Shown: positions 15,123-42,111 of the stretch, one piece after another
How positions within the stretch are numbered: position 1 is the first letter of the stretch
How the letters are laid out: every line of letters starts with the position of its first letter
Assembly (NCBI GenBank): GCA_963780755.1
Contig: CAWACX010000002.1
Location: 609,813 to 673,812 of the forward strand
Direction of reading: 5' to 3'
Source: an uncultured Acidobacteriota bacterium
GTDB taxonomy: Bacteria; Actinomycetota; Acidimicrobiia; Spongiisociales; ZC4RG35
DNA: 64,000 nt
The notes under the pieces: model-generated
The model's database searches: none
The model's input: the letters and a program-made list of their open reading frames with translations, nothing else
Told to the model about the DNA's origin: nothing
Position numbers and translations under genes: made by a program

Positions 15123-15196
15123 CGGGACGTAGCGCAGCTTGGTAGCGCGCAGCGTTCGGGACGCTGAGGTCGTGGGTTCAAGTCCCACCGTCCCGA
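15123..15196 (+). tRNA. tRNA-Pro (anticodon CGG)
   Basis: Manual fold: acceptor CGGGACG/CGTCCCG, D-arm GCGC-AGCTTGGTA-GCGC, anticodon stem CAGCG/CGCTG with loop TTCGGGA, T-arm GTGGG-TTCAAGT-CCCAC, discriminator A; CCA not encoded. Confidence 0.85.
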
Positions 15197-32759: not shown

Positions 32760-32798
32760 CGGATCGGTAACCAGGCCGTGGTATTCATCCCAACCGAA

Positions 32799-34850
32799 AT
32801 GGAGCATTTCGACCCGGATCATTTCCTCAACCGCGAGCTCTCCTGGTTGGAGTTCAACAAGCGGGTGCTGACCCTGGTGCAACGGCCTGATTTCCCGTTG
32901 CTGGAACGTGCCAAGTTCCTTGCCATCTGGGCGGCCAACCAGGACGAGTTCTTCCAGGTCAGGGTGGCAGGCCTCAAAGAGCAGGTGGCGCACGGAGTGG
33001 GGGTCACCCCCGACGATGGGATGACGCCGAGCCAGCAATTGGCGGCCATCCGACACGACGTCGACCTCCAGTACGAGGCAGTTTCCAAGCAATTCCTGTC
33101 CGAGGTGGCCCCCGCCCTGGCCACGGAAGGAATCGTGTTCAGCGACTACCCAACACTCGATGCCGAAGACCGGGAGTTCCTCGACCGGCAGTTTCGGGAC
33201 CTGGTGTTCCCGGTGGTGACACCACTCGCAGTCGACCCCTCCCATCCCTTCCCGTACATCTCGAACCTGTCACTGAACATGGCGGTGTTCGTGAGGAATC
33301 CCGACACCGGTCTGGCCCGGTTTGCCCGGGTCAAGGTGCCGCCGATCCTGCCCCGCTTCGTGGTGCTCCCCGACGGCGAGAGGTTCGTGCCGCTGGAGCA
33401 GGTGATCGCAGCCCACTTGCCCGCTCTCTTCCCCGGCATGGAAGTCCTGGCCAACCACGTGTTCCGCGTCACCCGAAACGCCGACATCGACGTCGAAGAG
33501 GACGAGGGTGGGGACCTGTTGATGGCCATCGAGTCCGAGCTCACCCAACGTCGCTTCGGGAGGATTGTGCGTCTCGAGATACACCCCGACATGCCCGACG
33601 AGGTGCTCGACCTGCTGCTCCGGGAGATGGGCGCCACCGAGGATGACGTGTTCCGGGTGGAAGGGCCCCTCGACCTTGCCGGGCTGTGGGGGCTGTACGA
33701 CCTGGATCGCCCGGAGTTGAAGTTCGACACTTTCACCGGGGTGACGCCGGCGCGTCTTGCCGTATCTGCAGGCGAGCAGGTGGACCTGTTCGAAGTCATC
33801 CGCCAAGGCGACCTCCTCGCCCATCACCCGTACGACTCGTTCACCCCCACAGTCGAGGCGTTCATCGACCGCGCCGCCCGTGATCCCAGGGTGCTTGCGA
33901 TCAAGATGACTCTTTACCGCACCTCGAGCGACAGCCCGATCATGGCCTCATTGATCCAGGCCGCCGAGTCGGGCAAGCAAGTCGTCGCGCTGGTCGAGTT
34001 GAAGGCCCGATTCGACGAGGAGCGCAACATCGAGTGGGCGCAGCGCCTGGAGGACGCAGGCGTCCATGTCACCTATGGCGTGGTCGGGCTCAAGACGCAC
34101 ACCAAGCTCACGCTTGTGGTGCGCCGAGAGGGTGAGGGGGTTGCCCGTTACGCCCACGTCGGGACCGGCAACTACAACGAGAAGACCGCTCGGACCTATG
34201 AGGACGTCGCGATGTTCACCGGCGATCCCGACATCGGGTCGGATCTGTCCGACATCTTCAACTACCTCACCGGTTACTCCCGTCAGACCAACTACCGAAA
34301 GCTGGTCGTCTCACCCAACGGCATCCGCAGCCGGATCACCGAGTTGATCGAAGACGAGGCTTCACGGACCGACGGGCACATCGTCATGAAGATGAACTCC
34401 CTGGTCGACGCCCGGATCATCGAGTCGCTATACGCGGCTTCCCGGGCCGGGACCCGGGTGGATCTCATAATTCGCGGAATCTGCTGCCTTCGCCCTGGTG
34501 TCCCTGAGCTCTCCGAGAACATCACGGTGCGCTCGATCGTGGGCCGCTATCTCGAGCACTCACGGATCTATCGCTTCGGAGCGAGGGGACGGTCCCGCCA
34601 TTACTACATCGGCTCCGCGGACCTGATGCCCCGGAACCTCGACCGCAGGGTCGAGGCCCTGGCGCCGATCCTCGATCCCGACTTGCAATTCAGGGTCGAC
34701 GAAGTCCTCGACGTGCTTCTTGCCGACGATCACCTGGCCTTCGAGCTCGCCGGTGACGGGACCTGGACCAGAGTCCCATCGGTGAAGGGCGTCGACGCCC
34801 ATATCGCCCTCCAGGAACTGGCCCGGACCCGGTCCACCGCTCACCTTTGA
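32799..34850 (+). CDS. ppk: polyphosphate kinase 1
   Basis: MEHFDPDHFLNRELSWLEFNKRVL...; autophosphorylated-His region and two PLD-like HKxxxxD modules; alternative GTG at 32778. Confidence 0.9.
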   Translation: MEHFDPDHFLNRELSWLEFNKRVLTLVQRPDFPLLERAKFLAIWAANQDEFFQVRVAGLKEQVAHGVGVTPDDGMTPSQQLAAIRHDVDLQYEAVSKQFLSEVAPALATEGIVFSDYPTLDAEDREFLDRQFRDLVFPVVTPLAVDPSHPFPYISNLSLNMAVFVRNPDTGLARFARVKVPPILPRFVVLPDGERFVPLEQVIAAHLPALFPGMEVLANHVFRVTRNADIDVEEDEGGDLLMAIESELTQRRFGRIVRLEIHPDMPDEVLDLLLREMGATEDDVFRVEGPLDLAGLWGLYDLDRPELKFDTFTGVTPARLAVSAGEQVDLFEVIRQGDLLAHHPYDSFTPTVEAFIDRAARDPRVLAIKMTLYRTSSDSPIMASLIQAAESGKQVVALVELKARFDEERNIEWAQRLEDAGVHVTYGVVGLKTHTKLTLVVRREGEGVARYAHVGTGNYNEKTARTYEDVAMFTGDPDIGSDLSDIFNYLTGYSRQTNYRKLVVSPNGIRSRITELIEDEASRTDGHIVMKMNSLVDARIIESLYAASRAGTRVDLIIRGICCLRPGVPELSENITVRSIVGRYLEHSRIYRFGARGRSRHYYIGSADLMPRNLDRRVEALAPILDPDLQFRVDEVLDVLLADDHLAFELAGDGTWTRVPSVKGVDAHIALQELARTRSTAHL

Positions 34851-34874
34851 CGGCCGATTCGGGGCGTCCTCAAC

Positions 34875-34918
34875 GTTCATCTCTCGTTCACACGGCGGTC
34901 GGATCTCGTTCAAGGCCC
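34875..34918 (+). promoter_or_regulatory. PHO box: three GTTCA direct-repeat units phased at 11 bp (PhoP/RegX3-type operator) upstream of pstS
   Basis: GTTCAtctctc GTTCAcacggc (ggtcggatctc) GTTCAaggcc, unit starts 34875, 34886, 34908 (spacings 11 and 22 bp); 80-120 bp upstream of the pstS ATG 35001. Confidence 0.6.
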
Positions 34919-35000
34919 ACTCTTAGCTTGCCGCGTGACCGTGGGGGCGAGACCTTCATGGTTTGTTGAAAACCGTTTCCCTATCAAGGAGATAGAAGGG

Positions 35001-36084
35001 ATGAAGGTCCGAATTGCCCGCCTCATCGGCTGTGTTTGCGGTGCTGGCGCTGGTCCTCGCCGCGTGCGGCGACGGGGCGCGGAGGAACGACCACGACCGC
35101 CGGCTCCGAAGAGCCAACGACCACGACTGCACCGACGAGCCGGCCACACTGCCGAGGGGGCGGCGGCGGGACCTGTCAGGGAACATCGTCGTTTCCGGAT
35201 CGTCCACTGTGGAGCCGATCGTGGCCCGGGTCGGCGGAGGCTTTCGACGGCGCCAACCCGGGTGTCGCCACCTCTGTCGAAGGGCCCGGCACCGGAGACG
35301 GCTTCGCCCGGTTCTGCGCCGGGGAGACCGACATCTCCAACGCCTCACGGCCGATTTCCGATGAAGAGATCGCCCTTGTGCGAGGAAGGCGGCAGTCGAA
35401 TACGTCGAGCTTCACGTCGCGACCGATGGGATCACGGTGATCACCAACCCGGCGAACGAAGCGGTGAGCTGCCTTGCCTTCACCGACCTCTACGCCCTCG
35501 TCGGTCCCGAGTCGGAAGGGTTCGCCAATTGGTCGGACGCCAATGCGCTGGCCGCCGAGTTGGGAGCCCCCAACGCTCCCTACGCCGACGATCCGCTGGT
35601 GATCACCGCTCCTGGTGAGGAGTCGGGCACCTATGACACCTTCGTCGAATTCGTGATCGCCGACATCTCCGAGGAGCGACTCGGTGAGGACAACGACTTC
35701 ACCCGTGCCGACTACAACGCAGCGGCCAACGACACGGTCATCGTCGACGGCATCACCGGTGATCCCACATCGCTGGGTTGGGTTGGCTTCGCCTTCTACG
35801 AGGAAAATGCCGATGCCCTCAAGGCGATCGAGTTGGACGATGGTGAGTCAGGGTGCGTCGCGCCCACGGCCGAGACCATCGCCAGCTTCGAGTACCCGCT
35901 CTCCCGGCCGCTGTTCATCTACGTGAAGACCACCGACCTGGCGAATCGGGCCGACCTGACGGCATTCGTCGACTACTTCCTCTCCGATGAGGGGTTGGCT
36001 GCGGTGACCGAAGCCGGATACGTCCAATTGCCGGCAGAGGACATCGAGGCCACCCGGGCCGCCTGGACGGGCGCCAAGGGCTAG
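35001..36084 (+). pseudogene. pstS: phosphate ABC transporter substrate-binding protein PstS, reading frame broken about 5 times
   Basis: PstS-like segments alternate between frames 3, 1, 2, 3, 1 (MKVRIARL / SAVFAVLALVLAACGDG / ...GSEEPTTTTAPTS / GNIVVSGSSTVEPI / AEAFDGANPGVATSVEGPGTGDGFARFCAGETDISNASRPISDEEIAL / VEYVELH... / MITNPANEAV...). Confidence 0.75.
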
Positions 36085-36097
36085 ACCGACTGAACGA

Positions 36098-36136
36098 TTG
36101 GGGGGCCGGACCGGCTCCGGCCCCCCAATCTCTATA
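36098..36136 (+). terminator. strong intrinsic terminator/attenuator between pstS and pstC
   Basis: ttggggggccgg-accggct-ccggccccccaa (12-bp stem) followed by tctctatatt. Confidence 0.6.
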
Positions 36137-36149
36137 TTCAGGACGAGTC

Positions 36150-37090
36150 ATGGCCTCGCTCAAACAGTAAGCAGCCTGCGATCGAACTCACAGGTGATCG
36201 GCGCCGTCGCCGGCGTGAGCGGGTGGTCGAAGTCGCTGTTCTTCGCGCGCCGCTGCGGTCGTCGATTCTGATCTCGGTGCGCCATCGTGCTGGCACTGGT
36301 CGGGCAAGGCCTGGTCGTTTTTGACCTCGATCGAAGCTCAATCAACTTTGGTCGAGTGGTTGGTTCCCACGACGGGGGCGATTCCAGCTCTCGGCGTTGC
36401 TGGTCCACACCCTGATAGTGACCGGGATCGCAATGATGGTTGCGGTCCCCTTCGGGCTGGGCTCGGCGATCTACCTCTCCGAGTACGCCAGGTCGAGTGT
36501 GCGCCGGGTCCTGAAGCCCACCCTCGAGATCCTCGCCGGGATCCCCTCGGTGGTCCTCGGCTTCTTCGCTCTCCAGTTCCTAACCCCGAACGTGGTCAAA
36601 GGCTTGTTTCCCGGGCGCTGAGACCGCCAACTTCCTCGCCGCCGGGATCGCGGTCGGGATTCTGACCGTTCCACTGATCGCATCGGTGTCCGAGGACGCG
36701 ATGCGTGCCGTCCCCTTGGCGCTGAGGGAGGCTTCGTATGGCCTGGGGGCCAAGCAGTGGCACACCGCCCTTCGGGTGGTATTCCCGGCCGCGATCTCCG
36801 GCATCATCGCCGCCATCATCCTCGGCATGTCGAGGGCGGTCGGCGAGACCATGGTCGTCGCCCTCGCCGCCGGTCTCAACGGGATAATGAACTTCAACCC
36901 GACCGGGGGCGGGCTGACCATGACCGGAGCGATGGCGAACCTGGCCGTGGGGTCCGATCAGGTGGCTGGTGACGCGGCCGCTTTCCAGTCACTCTTCTTC
37001 GTCGGCCTGGTGCTCTTCGCCTTGACCCTCGGCCTGAATGTCATTAGTCGAGCGCATGGTCCGCCGGTATCGGCAGAGGTACTGAGATGA
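36150..37090 (+). pseudogene. pstC: phosphate ABC permease PstC, fragmented by frameshifts
   Basis: PstC fragments at 36397..36621 (IYLSEYA...) and 36686..37090 (EAA-loop region RAVGETMVVALAAG) lie in different frames; the N-terminal ~80 codons from ATG 36150 are disrupted. Confidence 0.7.
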
Positions 37091-38053
37091 CGGCGACACG
37101 CAGAGACATTGTCGACTCCCGAGCTGGTTCGCAGATCGATCGAGGGGCGTCGGTTCAGCCCGGTCGAATGCCCTGGTCGACCTTCATGCTCTGTTGGCGC
37201 TGCTGTCCTCCGTGGTCATCCTCATCACTCTCCTCGCTGACACCATCGCGGCCGCAATGCCTGTGTTCCAAGCGCGGGGCCTTACCTTCGTCACCGACTC
37301 CCTGTCACCGGACGCCGGAGTCGGCGGGGATCTGGCAGGGGATCATGGGGTCGCTGGCGCTGACTGCCTTCGTGATCGTCATCTCCTTCCCTCTGGGTGT
37401 GGCGGCCGCCGTCTATCTGGAGGAATACGCGTCGGAGAACCGGGTGACCAAGTTCATCAATGCCAACATCCGCAACCTGGCCGGGGTGCCTTCGATCGTT
37501 TACGGGATCCTCGGTCTGTTTCTTTTCGTCGAGATATGATGAGCGGGGTCTTCGGTGCCGAGGAGGGGATCGGGGGCCGGAATGTCATCGCTGGTGGACT
37601 GACGCTGGCAGTCCTCGTCCTCCCGATCATGATCATCACCACCTCGGAGGCGCTGCGGGCGGTCCCCGGCGGCCTGCGCGAGGCCTCCCTTGCGGTGGGG
37701 GCAACTCGATGGGAGACGATCCGGCATCACGTCCTCCCGGTCGCCTTCCCTGCGATCCTCACCGGGTCGGTGCTCACCATCGCCCGGGCGTTCGGGGAAT
37801 CGGCGCCTTTGCTGCTCGCCGGCGCCCAACTCTCCTTGTTCTTCAGCGTCTCCAGCGAAGCGTCCTTCGTCGACTTGGTCTCCAACCAGCCCTACACGGC
37901 GCTGCCGATCGTCATTTCAACTTCGCACGACAACCGCAGGAGGCATTCGTAGCGCTCACCGCGGCCTCGATCGTCGTGCTCTTGGTCATGTTGCTCACGG
38001 TCAATGCCGTGGCGGTGATCATGCGTGACCGGTTCGAGCGGAGATATCGATGA
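37087..38053 (+). pseudogene. pstA: phosphate ABC permease PstA, at least 4 frame changes
   Basis: PstA-like segments alternate between ORFs 37087..37539, 37194..37952 and 37460..38053 (C-terminal ...AVIMRDRFERRYR). Confidence 0.7.
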
Positions 38054-38988
38054 ACCACCAGGAAGGCGAAGACTTGACCATTGACACCACCACCACCGGA
38101 ACCACCGACACCGCTCCCGACTCGGTCGGGGCAAGTGTCTCGGCGCTCGAGGAACAGGCAGCGCGGGTCGCGGAGGCTTCGGAGGCGGCGACCGGGACCG
38201 ATCCGCATCAGCCGATGATTTTCGACGTGGACGACCTAACTGTTTTCTACGGGTCGTTTCGGGCGGTCAAGAACGTGAGCATGGAGATTCGTCAAAATCA
38301 AATCACCGCCTTGATCGGCCCCTCGGGATGCGGCAAGTCGACCGTGCTCCGTTGCTTCAACCGAATGAACGACCTGATCGAGACCGCCCGGGTCGAAGGG
38401 ACGGTGCACTACCACGGCGTCGACCTCTACGGGGAAAAGGTGGACCCGGTGGAGGTGCGGAGGCGCATCGGGATGGTGTTCCAAAAGCCGAACCCGTTCC
38501 CGAAGAGCATCTACGAGAACATCGTGTACGGGCCGAAGATCGCCGGTTGGAAGGGGAACTACGACGAGCTGGTGGAGGAGGCCTTGATCAAGGCCGCTCT
38601 CTGGGACGAGGTCAAGGACAAGCTCAAGGAATCGGGCATGGCCTTGTCCGGGTGGCCAGCAACAGCGACTTTGCATCGCCCGGGCCATCGCCACCAGCCC
38701 CGACGTGGTTCTGATGGACGAGCCGTGTTCCGCCCTCGACCCGATCGCAACCTTGAAGATCGAGGAGCTGATGCTCGAGTTGAAGAAGGACTACACCATC
38801 GTCATCGTCACCCACAACATGCAGCAAGCCGCTCGGGTGTCGGATCAGACCGCCTTCTTCTCGGTGAACGTCGAGCGATGAAGGGACAGCGCACCGGTTA
38901 CCTCGTCGAGTACAACCCCACCGAGCAGATCTTCACTTCGCCAACCGAGAAACAGACCGAGGACTACATCACAGGACGGTTCGGATGA
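38050..38988 (+). pseudogene. pstB: phosphate ABC ATPase PstB, 2 or more frame disruptions plus in-frame stop
   Basis: Walker A GPSGCGKST in frame 1; the signature [16 protein letters not shown] is readable only in another frame (a T inserted in gggTggcc); the C-terminus returns to frame 1 after a TGA. Confidence 0.75.
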
Positions 38989-39692
38989 CCGACGTCACAG
39001 ACACCAATCTCCATTTTCACCAGGAACTCGAAGCGTTGGAGCACACCGTGCTGGGCATGATCGATCGCGCCGAGCAGATGGTGGAGATGGCGGTCGAAGG
39101 GGTGTGCACGAGCAACCTCGAGCTGGCAGACCGGGTAATCAGCCTCGATGACGGGATGGATGAGACCTACTTGTCGGTCCACAACCATTGGACAACCCTG
39201 ATGGCCCGGTTCCAGCCATTGGGCTCCGACCTGCGAAAGATGACAGTGCTCCTCCAGCTCAACCAGACTTTCGAGCGCATGGGCGATCAATGCGTGAATA
39301 TCGCCAAGATCTCGAAGCTGAACGTCGGGCTGCCCCCCGTGGAGCGGATCGTGGGGCAGATCCAGGAGATGGGAGACCTGGTTCGGCCCATGATCCGATC
39401 GTCGATCGAGGCCTACTTGCGCCAGGACCTGGACGAGGCCCGCCTCCTCCCGGCCATGGATCAACCGGTGGATCGGCTCAACGCCAACATGTACAAGGAG
39501 ATCGTTGCCGTCGGGGACAAACCGCAAATGCTGGAATGGGCCTCCAAGATGCTGATGGTGGCCCGCGCCCTGGAGCGGATCGGTGACCAGGCTGTCGACT
39601 TCGCCGAACAGACGGCGTATCTGATAACAGGAGAGCGAGCCGAGTTCGTGAAGGCGGGTCTCAACAGGTCGGCCGATGACGACACAGGCTGA
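38985..39692 (+). CDS. phoU: phosphate signalling complex protein PhoU
   Basis: 235 aa, two PhoU repeats (ERMGDQCVNIA / ERIGDQAVDFA); intact. Confidence 0.9.
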   Translation: MTDVTDTNLHFHQELEALEHTVLGMIDRAEQMVEMAVEGVCTSNLELADRVISLDDGMDETYLSVHNHWTTLMARFQPLGSDLRKMTVLLQLNQTFERMGDQCVNIAKISKLNVGLPPVERIVGQIQEMGDLVRPMIRSSIEAYLRQDLDEARLLPAMDQPVDRLNANMYKEIVAVGDKPQMLEWASKMLMVARALERIGDQAVDFAEQTAYLITGERAEFVKAGLNRSADDDTG

Positions 39693-40388
39693 CCGAAGGT
39701 CGCATCGCATCCTCCTCGTCGAGGATGAGCCCGGACTTGCCGAGTCGGTCCGTTATGCCCTGGGAAGCGAGGGATTCGATGTGCTCGTCGCCGACACCGG
39801 GGTCAGCGGCTTGGAGTCGGCTCGCACCAATCAGCCCGACCTCATCCTGCTCGACCTGATGCTCCCCGGGATGTCGGGTCTCGACGTCTGCCGCCAGATC
39901 CGGTCGTCGTCGGACGTCCCGATCATCATGCTCACCGCCAAGGACGCCGAATCGGACAAGGTCGCCGGGCTCGAACTGGGGGCCGACGACTACATGACGA
40001 AGCCGTTCTCGATGCGCGAGCTTGTCGCCCGGGTCAGGGCGCAGTTGCGCCGCGCTGCCAAGAGTGGGCTGCTCTCGGACTCCAACGAGGTCCTGCGGGG
40101 GGAGCCATCGACCTCGACATCGACGCCCACCAGGCCCGTTTCAACGGGGAGGACGTCGAACTCCGCCCCAAGGAGTTCGAGCTCCTCGAGTCCCTGATGC
40201 GGAGGAAGAACCGGCTGGCCGCCCGACACACCTTGATCGATGAGGTGTGGGGACCGAGCTACTTCGGGGACACCAAGACACTCGACGTCCACATCAAGCG
40301 CCTCCGTCAGAAACTGGAGCCCGACCCCGCCAAACCGGTCCACATCGTCACGGTGCGCGGTCTCGGCTACAAATTCGTGGATGAGTGA
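39676..40388 (+). CDS. regX3: OmpR/PhoB-family response regulator (RegX3/PhoP-like), single frameshift in a G6 run at 40097-40102
   Basis: Receiver in frame 1 (ILLVEDEPG...DLILLDLMLPG...MLTAK); winged-helix output in frame 3 (GGAIDLDIDAHQARFNGEDVELRPKEFELL...VRGLGYKFV); one G more or two fewer restores it. Confidence 0.85.
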
Positions 40389-42111
40389 CCGGACCGACTC
40401 CGGCCGGACCTCATTGCCGCTTCGCTCGCTGGCCTACTTTGTCGTCGCCTACCTGCTCCTGATCGGGCCCGCGGCGTGGCTGATCGCCGACGGGGTCACC
40501 GAACAAGCCACAGAGCAGGCGCTATCCGCACTGGAGACCGATGCTCGCCTCGCTTCCGAGTCGCTCCCAAGCGACGATCTCGATGCGTGGGTGGAGCAGA
40601 TGTTCCTGATCACCGGGCTCCGTTATGCGGTGATATCCACCGAGGGCGAAGTGCTCGCCGACTCCCACAGTGATGTCGCCGAGACCGAGAGCCATGCCGA
40701 CCGTCCCGAGGTGGTCGCGGCCAATGCCGGAGAAGTTGGAACCGATTCCCGGCCGAGCGAGACCACAGGCTTCGATCAGCACTACCTGGCCCTGCCTCCC
40801 GAGGACGGGTTGATAGTGAGGGTCTCGATCTCAGACCAGGACCTGTTGGAAGACGTGACCTTCGCCCGCAACGCGGTTTGGTGGATTGCGGGCCTGGCCG
40901 GCCTGGTCGGGGTCCTCGTGGTGTGGGTGCTCAGCTCGCGTCTTTCTGGGTCGATCACGAAGCTGACCGACCAGACACTGTCCGTCGCCGCCGGCGGGGA
41001 ATCGCCGCCCTCCCGCTCCTCGGTGCTCGAGTTGGACCGGCTGGGAGCCGCTGTCGTCCAACTCGAGGGCAGTCAGAAGGTCAGGGTCAACGAGGCGCAG
41101 GCAGCGAGCGAGACACTGGAGAAGGTGCTTGGCGCCCTACCCCAGGGGACCATCCTGTTCTCGGAGGCAGATGAGGTCATCTACGCCAACCCTTCGGCAT
41201 ACGAGCTCCTCGGCGCGGTCCCCGGCTCGCTCGCGGCGCTTGTCCCGTTCCCGTTTCAGGATGCGGTCCACGAGTGCAAGGAAGCCCGGCAGCCGGTGGA
41301 GCGCGTCGCCGAGCACGGGAAGCCGTCCCGAAGGTTGCGAGCAGTAGCCACCCCGTTCACAGGCGATGAGCGGATCCTGTTGGTGGTCGTCGATGTCACC
41401 GATCGGGAGCGGGTCGCATCGGTCCGCCGTGATTTCGTGGCCAACGCCTCGCACGAGCTCAAGACCCCGGTGTCGGCGATCATCGCTTCCTCGGAGGCTC
41501 TCCAGATCGCGATCGGCCGGGGCGACGAGTCGGCGGCCGGGTTCGCTCTTCAGATCGAAAGCTCGGCCCGCCAGTTGGACCGCCTGGTTGGGGACCTTCT
41601 CGACCTTTCCCGATTGGAGCGCGACGAGCCCGAGTTGGACCCGCTCAGCCTCGACCTCCTGGTGCGTGAGGAGTTGGAGCGAATTCGACCGGGAGCGGAG
41701 GAGAAGGGCATCGCCCTCGACTTCGACCTCGATCCGGTGCAGGTCTCCGGGAGCCGGCGCGACGTGGCGATCGCAGTCCGCAACCTGCTCGACAATGCCG
41801 TTCGCTACACCGGGTCTGCCGGCACGGTGAGCGCCAGCCTGCACCGGTCGAACGGGCAAGCCGTGCTCCAGATCGCCGACACCGGCGAAGGCATTCCAAC
41901 CCGGGACCTGAGCCGTGTGTTCGAGCGCTTCTATCGGGTGGACAACGCCAGGTCCCGTGCCACCGGTGGGACCGGGCTTGGGCTCTCCATCGTCAAACAC
42001 GTCGTCGAGAGCCACGGTGGCGCGGTCGACGTGGAGAGCGAGCTGGGGGAAGGGTCGGTATTCACAGTGCGACTGCCCGTTCTCGAAGGGGAAGCCCTGG
42101 TCGCTGGCTAG
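40381..42111 (+). CDS. senX3: sensor histidine kinase (SenX3/PhoR-like)
   Basis: N-terminal TM and sensor region, PAS-like region, HisKA box ASHELKTPVSAIIAS, HATPase_c (DNAVRYT...GTGLGLSIVKHVV); ATG overlaps the regX3 stop. Confidence 0.88.
   Translation: MSDRTDSGRTSLPLRSLAYFVVAYLLLIGPAAWLIADGVTEQATEQALSALETDARLASESLPSDDLDAWVEQMFLITGLRYAVISTEGEVLADSHSDVAETESHADRPEVVAANAGEVGTDSRPSETTGFDQHYLALPPEDGLIVRVSISDQDLLEDVTFARNAVWWIAGLAGLVGVLVVWVLSSRLSGSITKLTDQTLSVAAGGESPPSRSSVLELDRLGAAVVQLEGSQKVRVNEAQAASETLEKVLGALPQGTILFSEADEVIYANPSAYELLGAVPGSLAALVPFPFQDAVHECKEARQPVERVAEHGKPSRRLRAVATPFTGDERILLVVVDVTDRERVASVRRDFVANASHELKTPVSAIIASSEALQIAIGRGDESAAGFALQIESSARQLDRLVGDLLDLSRLERDEPELDPLSLDLLVREELERIRPGAEEKGIALDFDLDPVQVSGSRRDVAIAVRNLLDNAVRYTGSAGTVSASLHRSNGQAVLQIADTGEGIPTRDLSRVFERFYRVDNARSRATGGTGLGLSIVKHVVESHGGAVDVESELGEGSVFTVRLPVLEGEALVAG

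What the first reader, a model, noticed from the sequence alone, without database searches (positions are those of the whole stretch)
34870..34920. Phased GTTCA direct repeats (PHO box) in the pstS promoter
Three GTTCA cores start at 34875, 34886 and 34908, at 11-bp and 22-bp helical phasing, 80-120 bp upstream of the pstS ATG. This is the arrangement of direct-repeat units bound by actinobacterial PhoP/RegX3 regulators, and a RegX3/SenX3-type two-component system is encoded 4.7 kb downstream.
Basis: partly seen in the sequence, partly recalled or inferred. Interest (0 to 1): 0.55.

Follow-up and report, generated by a model that had tools for sequence, protein, structure and literature searches.

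The report
Phosphate-starvation switch before pstS gene
The phased GTTCA repeats are a real, strongly conserved docking site (PHO box) for the phosphate-starvation regulator in front of the phosphate-uptake operon of an uncultured Acidimicrobiia bacterium; this is a textbook kind of switch seen in a group where nobody had described it.

Summary
GTTCA starts at 34875, 34886 and 34908 on the + strand, in the 150-bp gap between ppk and pstS. It is the only phased GTTCA cluster in the 64 kb (0 of 2000 simulations give one).

GTTCA-N6-GTTCA with at most one mismatch lies upstream of pstS in 69 of 77 usable related loci, mostly Acidimicrobiia, and the flanks have diverged to randomness. A third unit (G[G/T]T[C/A]A) is fixed at +33 and a TAnnnT -10 box at +49. 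No -35 box is present. The unit consensus GTTCAYCT on an 11-nt period matches the published sites of Streptomyces PhoP and mycobacterial RegX3.

The response regulator 4.7 kb downstream is closest to RegX3 among solved structures (E 2e-76). Its recognition helix is invariant in most box-bearing loci that carry this regulator.

- The array is four 11-nt units, and unit 3 is a non-conserved spacer unit.
- The cores lie 93-126 bp, not 80-120 bp, before the ATG at 35001.
- The kinase is PhoR-like rather than SenX3-like, and the regulator gene comes first.

This is a new member of a known kind, of modest interest. An unexplained side issue is 25 frameshifts confined to pstSCAB.

The parts
34875..34885 (+). 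PHO-box unit 1 (GTTCATCTCTC), a core unit
   Evidence: It scores 15.8 bits on a single-unit matrix built from other genomes, within the top 0.002% of all 11-mers in the window. Units 1 and 2 together carry at most one mismatch to GTTCA-N6-GTTCA in 69 of 77 usable loci.
34886..34896 (+). PHO-box unit 2 (GTTCACACGGC), a core unit
   Evidence: It scores 9.1 bits, within the top 0.04%. It lies exactly 11 nt after unit 1, and this spacing is conserved across the loci.
34897..34907 (+). Unit 3 (GGTCGGATCTC), an in-phase spacer unit that is not a recognisable site
   Evidence: It scores -9.4 bits, only within the top 7%. The same position in other loci is indistinguishable from background (median -20.5 against -23.1). 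It reads CGTCG in the closest relative, L001.
34908..34918 (+). PHO-box unit 4 (GTTCAAGGCCC), an auxiliary promoter-proximal unit
   Evidence: It scores 4.6 bits, within the top 0.16%. G[G/T]T[C/A]A is conserved at +33 without having been selected for: G 42, G/T 54, T 51, C/A 48 and A 53 of 57 loci.
34924..34929 (+). Predicted -10 hexamer TAGCTT (TAnnnT); no -35 hexamer lies 16-18 nt upstream
   Evidence: At a fixed +49 from unit 1, T occurs in 54, A in 52 and the last T in 54 of 57 loci. The sigma-70 consensus scan finds no full promoter here. The positions where a -35 would sit are G/C-rich and unconserved. The transcription start near 34936 is inferred.
34937..34965 (+). Conserved hairpin in the predicted 5' leader (GACCGTGG...CATGGTT)
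   Evidence: It is predicted in an alignment of 8 relatives. All pairs are invariant, so there is no covariation. It is absent in L001, and there is no Rfam match. Its role is unknown.
34986..34991 (+). Shine-Dalgarno sequence AAGGAG, 9 nt before the ATG
   Evidence: Read from the sequence. It is conserved in relatives.
35001..36084 (+). pstS, the phosphate-binding lipoprotein; 10 frameshifts in the window copy
   Evidence: PBP_like_2 domain. The L001 orthologue passes the TIGR02136 cut-off. The frameshift-aware alignment gives 89.6% identity once the frame is corrected.
36097..36131 (+). Perfect 15-bp G+C-rich hairpin between pstS and pstC
   Evidence: The 71-nt stretch 36080-36150 that holds it folds at -40.9 kcal/mol, z-score -6.4, and 0 of 200 shuffles fold as well. 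A role as attenuator or mRNA stabiliser is inferred.
36150..38988 (+). pstC, pstA and pstB, the phosphate ABC transporter; 8, 5 and 2 frameshifts
   Evidence: BPD_transp_1 and ABC_tran domains. Alignment to the intact L001 proteins.
38985..39692 (+). phoU, intact; its start overlaps the pstB stop
   Evidence: TIGR02135 phoU_full scores 150 bits against a cut-off of 130.
39676..40388 (+). RegX3/PhoP-type response regulator of the OmpR family, with one frameshift in a G-run near 40100
   Evidence: The best solved relative is M. tuberculosis RegX3, 2OQR, at E 2.2e-76, against MtrA at 6e-63. It is 96% identical to the intact L001 protein. Its helix is GDTKTLDVHIKRLR.
40393..42111 (+). PhoR-like membrane histidine kinase, intact
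   Evidence: HisKA, HATPase_c and PAS domains. The best NCBIfam models are PnpS (279 bits) and PhoR (260 bits), both below their cut-offs. The start coordinate is taken from the alignment to L001.

Best explanation
The repeats are the PHO box of the pstS promoter. Under phosphate limitation, the PhoR-like kinase encoded in the same gene cluster phosphorylates the RegX3/PhoP-type response regulator.

A head-to-tail dimer of the regulator then binds the two well-conserved 11-nt units (34875 and 34886). This occupancy extends cooperatively across the degenerate unit 3 to unit 4 (34908). The core of unit 4 ends 9 nt before the -10 hexamer TAGCTT (34924-34929).

There is no -35 element, so the promoter-proximal regulator stands in for it and recruits RNA polymerase. 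Transcription starts near 34936.

The genes from pstC to the kinase overlap or abut. The same transcript therefore probably carries pstSCAB, phoU, the regulator and the kinase. That would give positive autoregulation plus negative feedback through PhoU and Pst.

Shown here: the sequence elements, their conservation and fixed geometry, and the orthology of the regulator. Inferred: binding, activation rather than repression, the transcription start, and the extent of the operon.
For: - **Conservation.** GTTCA-N6-GTTCA with at most one mismatch lies upstream of pstS in 69 of 77 usable loci from distinct species, down to 57% PstS identity. About 0.5 loci would be expected by chance (my calculation from base composition). 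Flanking columns carry about 0 bits.
- **Columns not used to pick the sites are also conserved.** These are YCT after each core, C at unit position 11, G[G/T]T[C/A]A at +33 and TAnnnT at +49.
- **Uniqueness.** The leave-window-out matrix gives 28.9 bits here, 8.3 for the next hit in the window, and a null maximum of 11.2 +/- 3.2.
- **Negative control.** The four Chloroflexota loci with a similar PstS (L043, L051, L054, L064) lack the box. In the three whose regulator helix could be read (L043, L054, L064) it is GDGRTVDVHVSWLR.
- **Regulator.** The regulator is closest to RegX3. The helix GDTKTLDVH[I/V]KRLR is invariant in most box-bearing loci that carry this regulator after phoU.
- **Published sites match.** Streptomyces PhoP binds 11-nt units G(G/T)TCAYYYR(G/C)G, needs at least two units, and weak adjacent units are filled cooperatively. 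The S. coelicolor pstS box lies on the coding strand and is activating (PMC2275107). The most conserved part of the unit is GTTCACC (PMC4415409). RegX3 binds G(T/G)TCAcc-n4-cG (PMC7884335). Microlunatus has GTTCACnnnnnGTTCaC before its pit, pstS and ppk genes (PMC6754071).
- **Other Pho genes in relatives.** A 20.2-bit box lies 52 nt before ppk in L074, and a 30.8-bit box lies before pstB in L068. Hits away from the pstS box are about tenfold enriched over column-permuted matrices.
- **Promoter logic.** E. coli PHO boxes sit around, or in place of, the -35 box (PMC8601176). The same logic applies here.
Against: - There is no binding or expression data for any Acidimicrobiia.
- The transcription start is predicted only from a conserved TAnnnT.
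- Unit 3 is not a recognisable site, so occupation of unit 4 relies on assumed cooperativity.
- Position 6 of unit 4 is A, where the consensus has a pyrimidine.
- The window has no second box, so regulon-level support comes only from relatives.
- The window copies of pstSCAB and the regulator carry 26 frameshifts. If these are real, the switch would be a relic in this genome.
- A sub-clade with boxes has a different regulator next to pstS (helix DSKTLDQHIRRLRR). The box-to-regulator assignment is therefore not one-to-one across the class.
Confidence: 0.85

Rival explanations
1. The site is functional in relatives but is a relic here. On this reading the pstSCAB genes and the regulator gene of this genome are decaying pseudogenes, so the box no longer controls a working transporter.
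For: There are 25 single-base frameshifts in pstS, pstC, pstA and pstB and one in the regulator. There are none in tetR, ppk, phoU, the kinase or dxs. Changes in GC3 phase peak at 36-40 kb within the whole window. Many of the indels are not in homopolymers.
Against: Frame-corrected identity to L001 is 88-91% for the Pst proteins. Relative to ppk, the regulator and dxs, this is no lower than in relatives with intact operons. The aligner needed no in-frame stop codons and found no large deletions. The box, the -10 and the Shine-Dalgarno sequence are all intact. Relatives include many long-read metagenome bins. A local polishing artefact is the simpler reading.
Confidence: 0.08
2. A different regulator with a similar direct-repeat preference binds the repeats. 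Candidates are another OmpR-family protein such as MtrA, or a DevR/PolR-type protein as reported in Microlunatus. The operon-encoded RegX3-like protein would then not be the binder.
For: MtrA is the second-best structural relative of the regulator family. In Microlunatus a DevR-like PolR was reported to footprint GTTCACnnnnnGTTCaC (PMC6754071). Some box-bearing loci carry a different adjacent regulator.
Against: The box co-occurs with an invariant RegX3-type recognition helix in most loci. It disappears in the Chloroflexota loci, where the helices that could be read differ. The motif equals the sites determined experimentally for PhoP and RegX3 (PMC2275107, PMC7884335). The regulator lies in the operon it would control.
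Confidence: 0.05
3. The regulator binds here but represses. Units 3 and 4 cover the -35 and spacer region and would block RNA polymerase.
For: The array spans roughly -61 to -18 relative to the predicted start. PhoP is known to repress some Streptomyces promoters (PMC2275107, PMC2691820).
Against: The promoter lacks a -35 element across the whole class, which is the mark of an activator-dependent promoter. pstS is activated by PhoP, RegX3 or PhoB in every system studied (PMC2275107, PMC4415409). The geometry, with the proximal core 9 nt before the -10, resembles that of E. coli activation sites (the E. coli geometry is from my own knowledge).
Confidence: 0.02
4. The repeats are a chance cluster of a short word.
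For: An exact pair alone is expected 0.05-0.09 times per window.
Against: The triple appeared in 0 of 2000 simulations. The site is conserved in 69 of 77 loci with fixed geometry.
Confidence: 0.005

Closest known systems
PHO box of Streptomyces coelicolor PhoP (pstS, phoU, phoRP and other promoters; PMC2275107)
   Same: Both use 11-nt direct repeat units with a GTTCAY core. At least two consecutive units lie on the coding strand near the -35 region of pstS, and the site is activating. Weak neighbouring units are filled cooperatively. In Streptomyces, class III operators have core (C) plus extension (E) units.
   Different: The tail of the unit here is YCTnyC rather than YYYR(G/C)G. The layout is two core units, a spacer unit and one auxiliary unit at a fixed 49 nt from the -10. 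The regulator and kinase lie inside the pst-phoU operon with the regulator first. In Streptomyces (my own knowledge) phoR-phoP is a separate unit divergent from phoU, and pstSCAB lies elsewhere.
RegX3 sites of Mycobacterium smegmatis and M. tuberculosis (G(T/G)TCAcc-n4-cG, as cited in PMC7884335)
   Same: RegX3 is the closest solved relative of the regulator (2OQR, E 2e-76). Its recognition helix differs at one position, DVHVKRLR against DVHIKRLR. The core word is the same.
   Different: SenX3 is a shorter kinase encoded before regX3 and away from pstS (my own knowledge). Here the kinase is PhoR/PnpS-like, about 570 aa, and follows the regulator gene.
Pho box of Escherichia coli PhoB (CTGTCAT-n4, two 11-nt units; PMC4415409, PMC8601176)
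   Same: Both have an 11-nt period, a head-to-tail dimer, and a site that replaces the -35 box. The proximal core lies about 10 nt before the -10. Two tandem boxes, that is four units, also occur at E. coli pstS (the last two points are from my own knowledge).
   Different: The core word differs (TGTCA against GTTCA). In E. coli the promoter-proximal box is well conserved. Here the distal pair is the conserved one.
GTTCACnnnnnGTTCaC sites before pit, pstS, ppk and ppgk in Microlunatus phosphovorus (PMC6754071)
   Same: The sequence pattern is the same and lies before phosphate-transport and polyphosphate genes of an actinobacterium.
   Different: In that study the sites were attributed to a DevR-like regulator, PolR. 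The authors themselves note that they look like PhoP sites.

Membership tests
Actinobacterial PHO box (PhoP/RegX3 operator) | At least two consecutive direct repeat units with a period of exactly 11 nt | tested here: met
   Units start at 34875 and 34886, and a further in-phase unit starts at 34908. The 11-nt spacing is kept in 69 of 77 loci.
Actinobacterial PHO box (PhoP/RegX3 operator) | Unit matches G(G/T)TCAYYYR(G/C)G, with a GTTCAY core in well-conserved units (PMC2275107) | tested here: met
   Unit 1 is GTTCATCT and unit 2 is GTTCACAC, so positions 1-6 match in both. Unit 4 is GTTCAA, where position 6 is not a pyrimidine. Unit 3 matches only GGTC. Tail positions 9-11 differ from the Streptomyces consensus.
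Actinobacterial PHO box (PhoP/RegX3 operator) | Lies in the promoter of a phosphate-regulon gene, at or next to the -35 region | tested here: met
   The site lies 93-126 bp before the pstS ATG, and unit 4 ends 5 nt before a conserved TAnnnT. The transcription start is predicted, not mapped.
Actinobacterial PHO box (PhoP/RegX3 operator) | A cognate PhoP/RegX3-type regulator is present in the genome | tested here: met
   The best solved relative is RegX3 at E 2.2e-76, ahead of MtrA. No NCBIfam equivalog model passes its cut-off, so orthology rests on best-hit ranking and helix identity.
Actinobacterial PHO box (PhoP/RegX3 operator) | Conserved in orthologous promoters and found before other Pho genes | tested here: met
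   pstS promoters carry it in 69 of 77 loci. It also occurs before ppk in L074 and before pstB in L068. There is no second box in the 64-kb window itself, and the rest of this genome could not be read.
Actinobacterial PHO box (PhoP/RegX3 operator) | Bound by the phosphorylated regulator, with phosphate-dependent transcription | not testable with these tools
   This needs a gel-shift or footprint assay and expression data.
SenX3-RegX3 two-component system, in the strict mycobacterial sense | A SenX3-type kinase encoded immediately upstream of regX3 | tested here: not met
   The regulator gene (39676) precedes the kinase gene (about 40393) and follows phoU. The kinase matches PnpS and PhoR models best, below their cut-offs. 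It works like PhoR-PhoP or SenX3-RegX3, but it is not a SenX3-RegX3 locus by organisation.

The most novel reading that the evidence does not exclude
In Acidimicrobiia the whole phosphate-sensing circuit may be wired as one self-controlling transcript. The transporter PstSCAB, the brake PhoU, the regulator and the kinase would all be driven by a single four-unit PHO-box promoter. In that promoter the strong regulator sites are the distal pair and the polymerase-proximal sites are weak. This would build in a cooperative threshold, with positive and negative feedback on one mRNA. Such wiring differs from that of Streptomyces, Mycobacterium and E. coli.
Probability: 0.45. Interest if true: 0.35.

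Novelty: new member of a known kind. Interest (0 to 1): 0.25.

Why it matters
The result gives a well-supported regulator-binding motif and promoter layout for a large class of soil and water actinobacteria known mostly from metagenome bins. No paper in the held library joins Acidimicrobiia with PHO boxes.

The motif can be used directly to predict phosphate regulons in these metagenome-assembled genomes. It also shows that the GTTCA-type PHO box and the RegX3/PhoP recognition helix were probably already in place in the common ancestor of Acidimicrobiia and the classical actinomycetes. It does not change how phosphate control is understood.

Tried and rejected
- **Other boxes in the window.** I looked before ppk, phoU, the regulator and elsewhere. 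None was found; the best other hit scores 8.3 bits, below the null.
- **Full sigma-70 promoter.** None is present in 34600-35100. The only terminator-like hit lies inside ppk.
- **Known RNA family in the leader.** There is no Rfam match, even at E up to 5. The leader hairpin shows no covariation and is missing in the closest relative, so I make no claim for it.
- **Source contig.** Exact-protein look-up of ppk found nothing on record, with either V or M as the first residue.
- **Unit 3 as a fourth true site.** Rejected. It is at background level in relatives and begins with C in L001.
- **Third GTTCA at +52 in the L004-type sub-clade.** Rejected as a unit. It arises where the -10 TACGTT overlaps the following CA.
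- **Minus-strand hits at about -379 in L045 and L078.** Rejected. They are the Shine-Dalgarno sequence plus a GTG-AAC start, read backwards.
- **Papers not held.** Two papers, on RegX3 footprints (Glover 2007) and on the PhoB-sigma70 structure (Blanco 2011), could not be read. I cite the RegX3 consensus second-hand, and the E. coli geometry rests on my own knowledge.
- **GlnR-type sites (gTnAc-n6-GaAAc).** Considered from memory and rejected, because the cores do not fit.

Full report
**1. What is there**

The + strand reads aacGTTCAtctctcGTTCAcacggcGGTCGgatctcGTTCAaggcccactctTAGCTT. GTTCA starts at 34875, 34886 and 34908.

The repeats lie in the 150-bp gap between the stop codon of an intact polyphosphate kinase gene and the pstS start codon. 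The ppk gene spans 32778-34850 and has four PP_kinase domains. The pstS ATG is at 35001-35003, preceded by AAGGAG at 34986-34991.

The gene order on the + strand is tetR, ppk, pstS, pstC, pstA, pstB, phoU, an OmpR-family response regulator (from 39676), a histidine kinase, and dxs.

**2. Is it more than chance?**

Within the window, GTTCA occurs 48 times on the + strand and 40 times on the - strand. This is the only place where copies share an 11-nt register.

An exact pair alone is only marginal, at 0.05-0.09 expected per window. The in-phase triple appeared in 0 of 2000 Markov simulations, and the analytic expectation is about 2.5e-4.

**3. Evidence from relatives**

A search of one genome per species with the undamaged C-terminal part of PstS returned 80 loci. 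Nearly all are metagenome bins labelled Acidimicrobiia or Actinomycetota, at 92% down to 56% identity.

- In 56 of the 77 loci with enough upstream sequence, an exact GTTCA-N6-GTTCA lies in front of pstS. With one mismatch allowed the count is 69 of 77. From base composition I expect about 0.5 such loci by chance.
- Sequence around the box has diverged to about zero information. Several columns that were not used to pick the sites are nevertheless conserved:
  - A at -3.
  - YCT after each core.
  - C at unit position 11.
  - G[G/T]T[C/A]A at +33.
  - TAnnnT at +49 (T 54, A 52 and T 54 of 57).
- A matrix built without the window scores the window site at 28.9 bits. The next hit in the 64 kb scores 8.3, and the null maximum is 11.2 +/- 3.2.
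- The four loci labelled Chloroflexota (L043, L051, L054, L064) have a similar PstS but no box. In the three whose regulator helix could be read (L043, L054, L064) it differs. This serves as a useful negative control.

**4. Anatomy**

Scored with a single-unit matrix from other genomes:

| Unit | Start | Score | Rank among window 11-mers |
|---|---|---|---|
| 1 | 34875 | 15.8 bits | top 0.002% |
| 2 | 34886 | 9.1 bits | top 0.04% |
| 3 | 34897 | -9.4 bits | top 7% (not distinguishable from background) |
| 4 | 34908 | 4.6 bits | top 0.16% |

In relatives, unit 3 is at background level and unit 4 is intermediate. The closest relative has CGTCG at unit 3. The array is therefore two core units, one in-phase spacer unit and one auxiliary unit.

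The 7-nt core of unit 4 ends 9 nt before the -10 hexamer TAGCTT (34924-34929). No -35 hexamer exists here or in the relatives. If the start is placed near 34936, the units span about -61 to -18. The start position is an inference.

**5. The regulator**

After repair of one frameshift in a G-run, the regulator is closest to M. tuberculosis RegX3 among all solved structures. RegX3 (2OQR) scores E 2.2e-76, ahead of MtrA at 6e-63. The recognition helix differs at one position.

The regulator is 96% identical to the intact protein of L001. No NCBIfam equivalog model reaches its cut-off for either the regulator or the kinase. The kinase is nearest to the PnpS and PhoR models.

In most box-bearing loci the regulator gene sits 4.1-5.7 kb after the start of the pstS match, and its helix GDTKTLDVH[I/V]KRLR is invariant. 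In the intact L001 locus every gene from pstC to the kinase overlaps or abuts its neighbour. A single operon is therefore likely, but it is not shown.

**6. Comparison with what is known**

- Streptomyces PhoP binds 11-nt units with consensus G(G/T)TCAYYYR(G/C)G and needs at least two of them. Deleting one base from a unit nearly abolishes binding. Poorly conserved neighbouring units are filled cooperatively. The S. coelicolor pstS box is on the coding strand and is activating (PMC2275107). The most conserved part of the unit is GTTCACC (PMC4415409).
- The RegX3 site is quoted as G(T/G)TCAcc-n4-cG (PMC7884335).
- Microlunatus has GTTCACnnnnnGTTCaC before its phosphate and polyphosphate genes (PMC6754071).
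- E. coli PHO boxes sit at the place of the -35 box (PMC8601176).

The window site fits this family in period, core word, strand, position and target gene. It differs in three ways: the tail of the unit (YCTnyC), the fixed two-plus-spacer-plus-one layout, and the placement of the regulator and kinase inside the pst-phoU operon with the regulator first. No paper in the held library links Acidimicrobiia with PHO boxes.

**7. Other Pho genes**

The window has no second box. Across the 1.28 Mb of related loci, hits away from the pstS box are about tenfold more frequent than with column-permuted matrices.

- A 20.2-bit box lies 52 nt before ppk in L074. Its -10-like TAGTGT sits just before the ATG, which suggests a leaderless mRNA.
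- A 30.8-bit box lies before pstB in L068, where the operon is rearranged.
- Some Ilumatobacteraceae carry a second, inverted box about 40 nt upstream of the pstS box.

The rest of this genome could not be read.

**8. Mechanism proposed**

At low phosphate the kinase phosphorylates the regulator. A dimer nucleates on units 1-2, occupancy spreads to units 3-4, and the proximal protomer replaces the missing -35 contact and recruits RNA polymerase.

A perfect 15-bp hairpin after pstS (36097-36131; the 71-nt stretch that holds it folds at -40.9 kcal/mol, z -6.4) may raise PstS relative to the downstream genes. Co-transcription of phoU, the regulator and the kinase would give both positive and negative feedback.

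Only the sequence elements, their conservation and the regulator's relationships are shown. Binding, the direction of control, the transcription start and the operon extent are inferred.

**9. The frameshifts**

A frameshift-aware alignment to the intact L001 proteins finds 26 events:

| Gene | Frameshift events |
|---|---|
| pstS | 10 |
| pstC | 8 |
| pstA | 5 |
| pstB | 2 |
| response regulator | 1 |
| tetR, ppk, phoU, kinase, dxs | 0 |

A GC3-phase scan of the whole window also peaks at 36-40 kb. Frame-corrected identities are 88-91%. Relative to the flanking genes, they are no lower than in relatives with intact operons. There is thus no sign of relaxed selection.

I favour a local assembly or polishing artefact in a metagenome bin, but this is not proven. 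It does not affect the reading of the box, which is intact.

**10. Verdict**

This is a clear new member of a known kind, with a well-defined clade-wide promoter layout and modest interest.

Noticed in passing
window 35029-38881 and near 40100: There are 25 single-base frameshifts confined to pstS, pstC, pstA and pstB, plus one in the response regulator. There are none in about 7 kb of flanking genes (tetR, ppk, phoU, kinase, dxs). They occur in runs of the same sign, and many follow GTCG or GGTC rather than lying in homopolymers. Frame-corrected proteins are as conserved as in relatives with intact operons, so a local assembly artefact is favoured but not proven.
   Followed up: partly
window 36097-36131: A perfect 15-bp G+C-rich hairpin lies between the pstS stop and pstC. 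The 71-nt stretch 36080-36150 that holds it folds at -40.9 kcal/mol with z -6.4. It is followed by TCTCTATATTC. It may be a partial terminator or an mRNA stabiliser that sets the PstS to PstCAB ratio.
   Followed up: partly
window 34937-34965: The predicted 5' leader holds a hairpin, GACCGTGG...CATGGTT, that is invariant in 8 relatives. It shows no covariation, has no Rfam match, and is missing in the closest relative L001. The window copy lacks one C of the 3' arm.
   Followed up: partly
L004, L006-L009, L011-L015, L020, L021, L073 (between unit 2 and the -10): This sub-clade has a strongly conserved spacer, GCAAACGCCCGGTTAACGAC. It contains the auxiliary unit as GGTTAAC, and its -10 TACGTT creates an apparent third GTTCA at +52 by overlap. 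It could hold a second regulator site.
   Followed up: no
L022, L023, L026, L029, L031, L039, L041, L067, L075, L077, L080 (1.3-1.9 kb upstream of the pstS match, minus strand): This sub-clade has a divergently encoded OmpR-family regulator about 45-53% identical to the window's, with helix DSKTLDQHIRRLRRKLE. Several of these loci have ATTCA instead of GTTCA in unit 1.
   Followed up: no
L042 9464, L066 2856, L072 9428-9449 (minus strand): These loci (L066 and L072 are labelled Ilumatobacteraceae, L042 Acidimicrobiaceae) carry a second two-unit box in inverted orientation about 40 nt upstream of the pstS box. In L072, where the sequence was read, it lies in the ppk-pstS spacer.
   Followed up: partly
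L074 3845-3900; L068 4014-4090: PHO boxes also lie before ppk (probably a leaderless mRNA, with TAGTGT 7 nt before the ATG) and before a relocated pstB. Their box-to-promoter geometry differs from that at pstS.
   Followed up: partly
locus titles (e.g. L001, L006, L009, L012, L018): Many MAG records with MFD isolate names are titled 'uncultured Acidobacteriota bacterium'. Their PstS is nevertheless 83-92% identical to that of bins titled Acidimicrobiia or Actinomycetota, and L001 carries a RegX3-type regulator. The titles look mislabelled.
   Followed up: no
window 15123-15196: A tRNA gene on the + strand is the only Rfam match at gathering threshold in the window.
   Followed up: no
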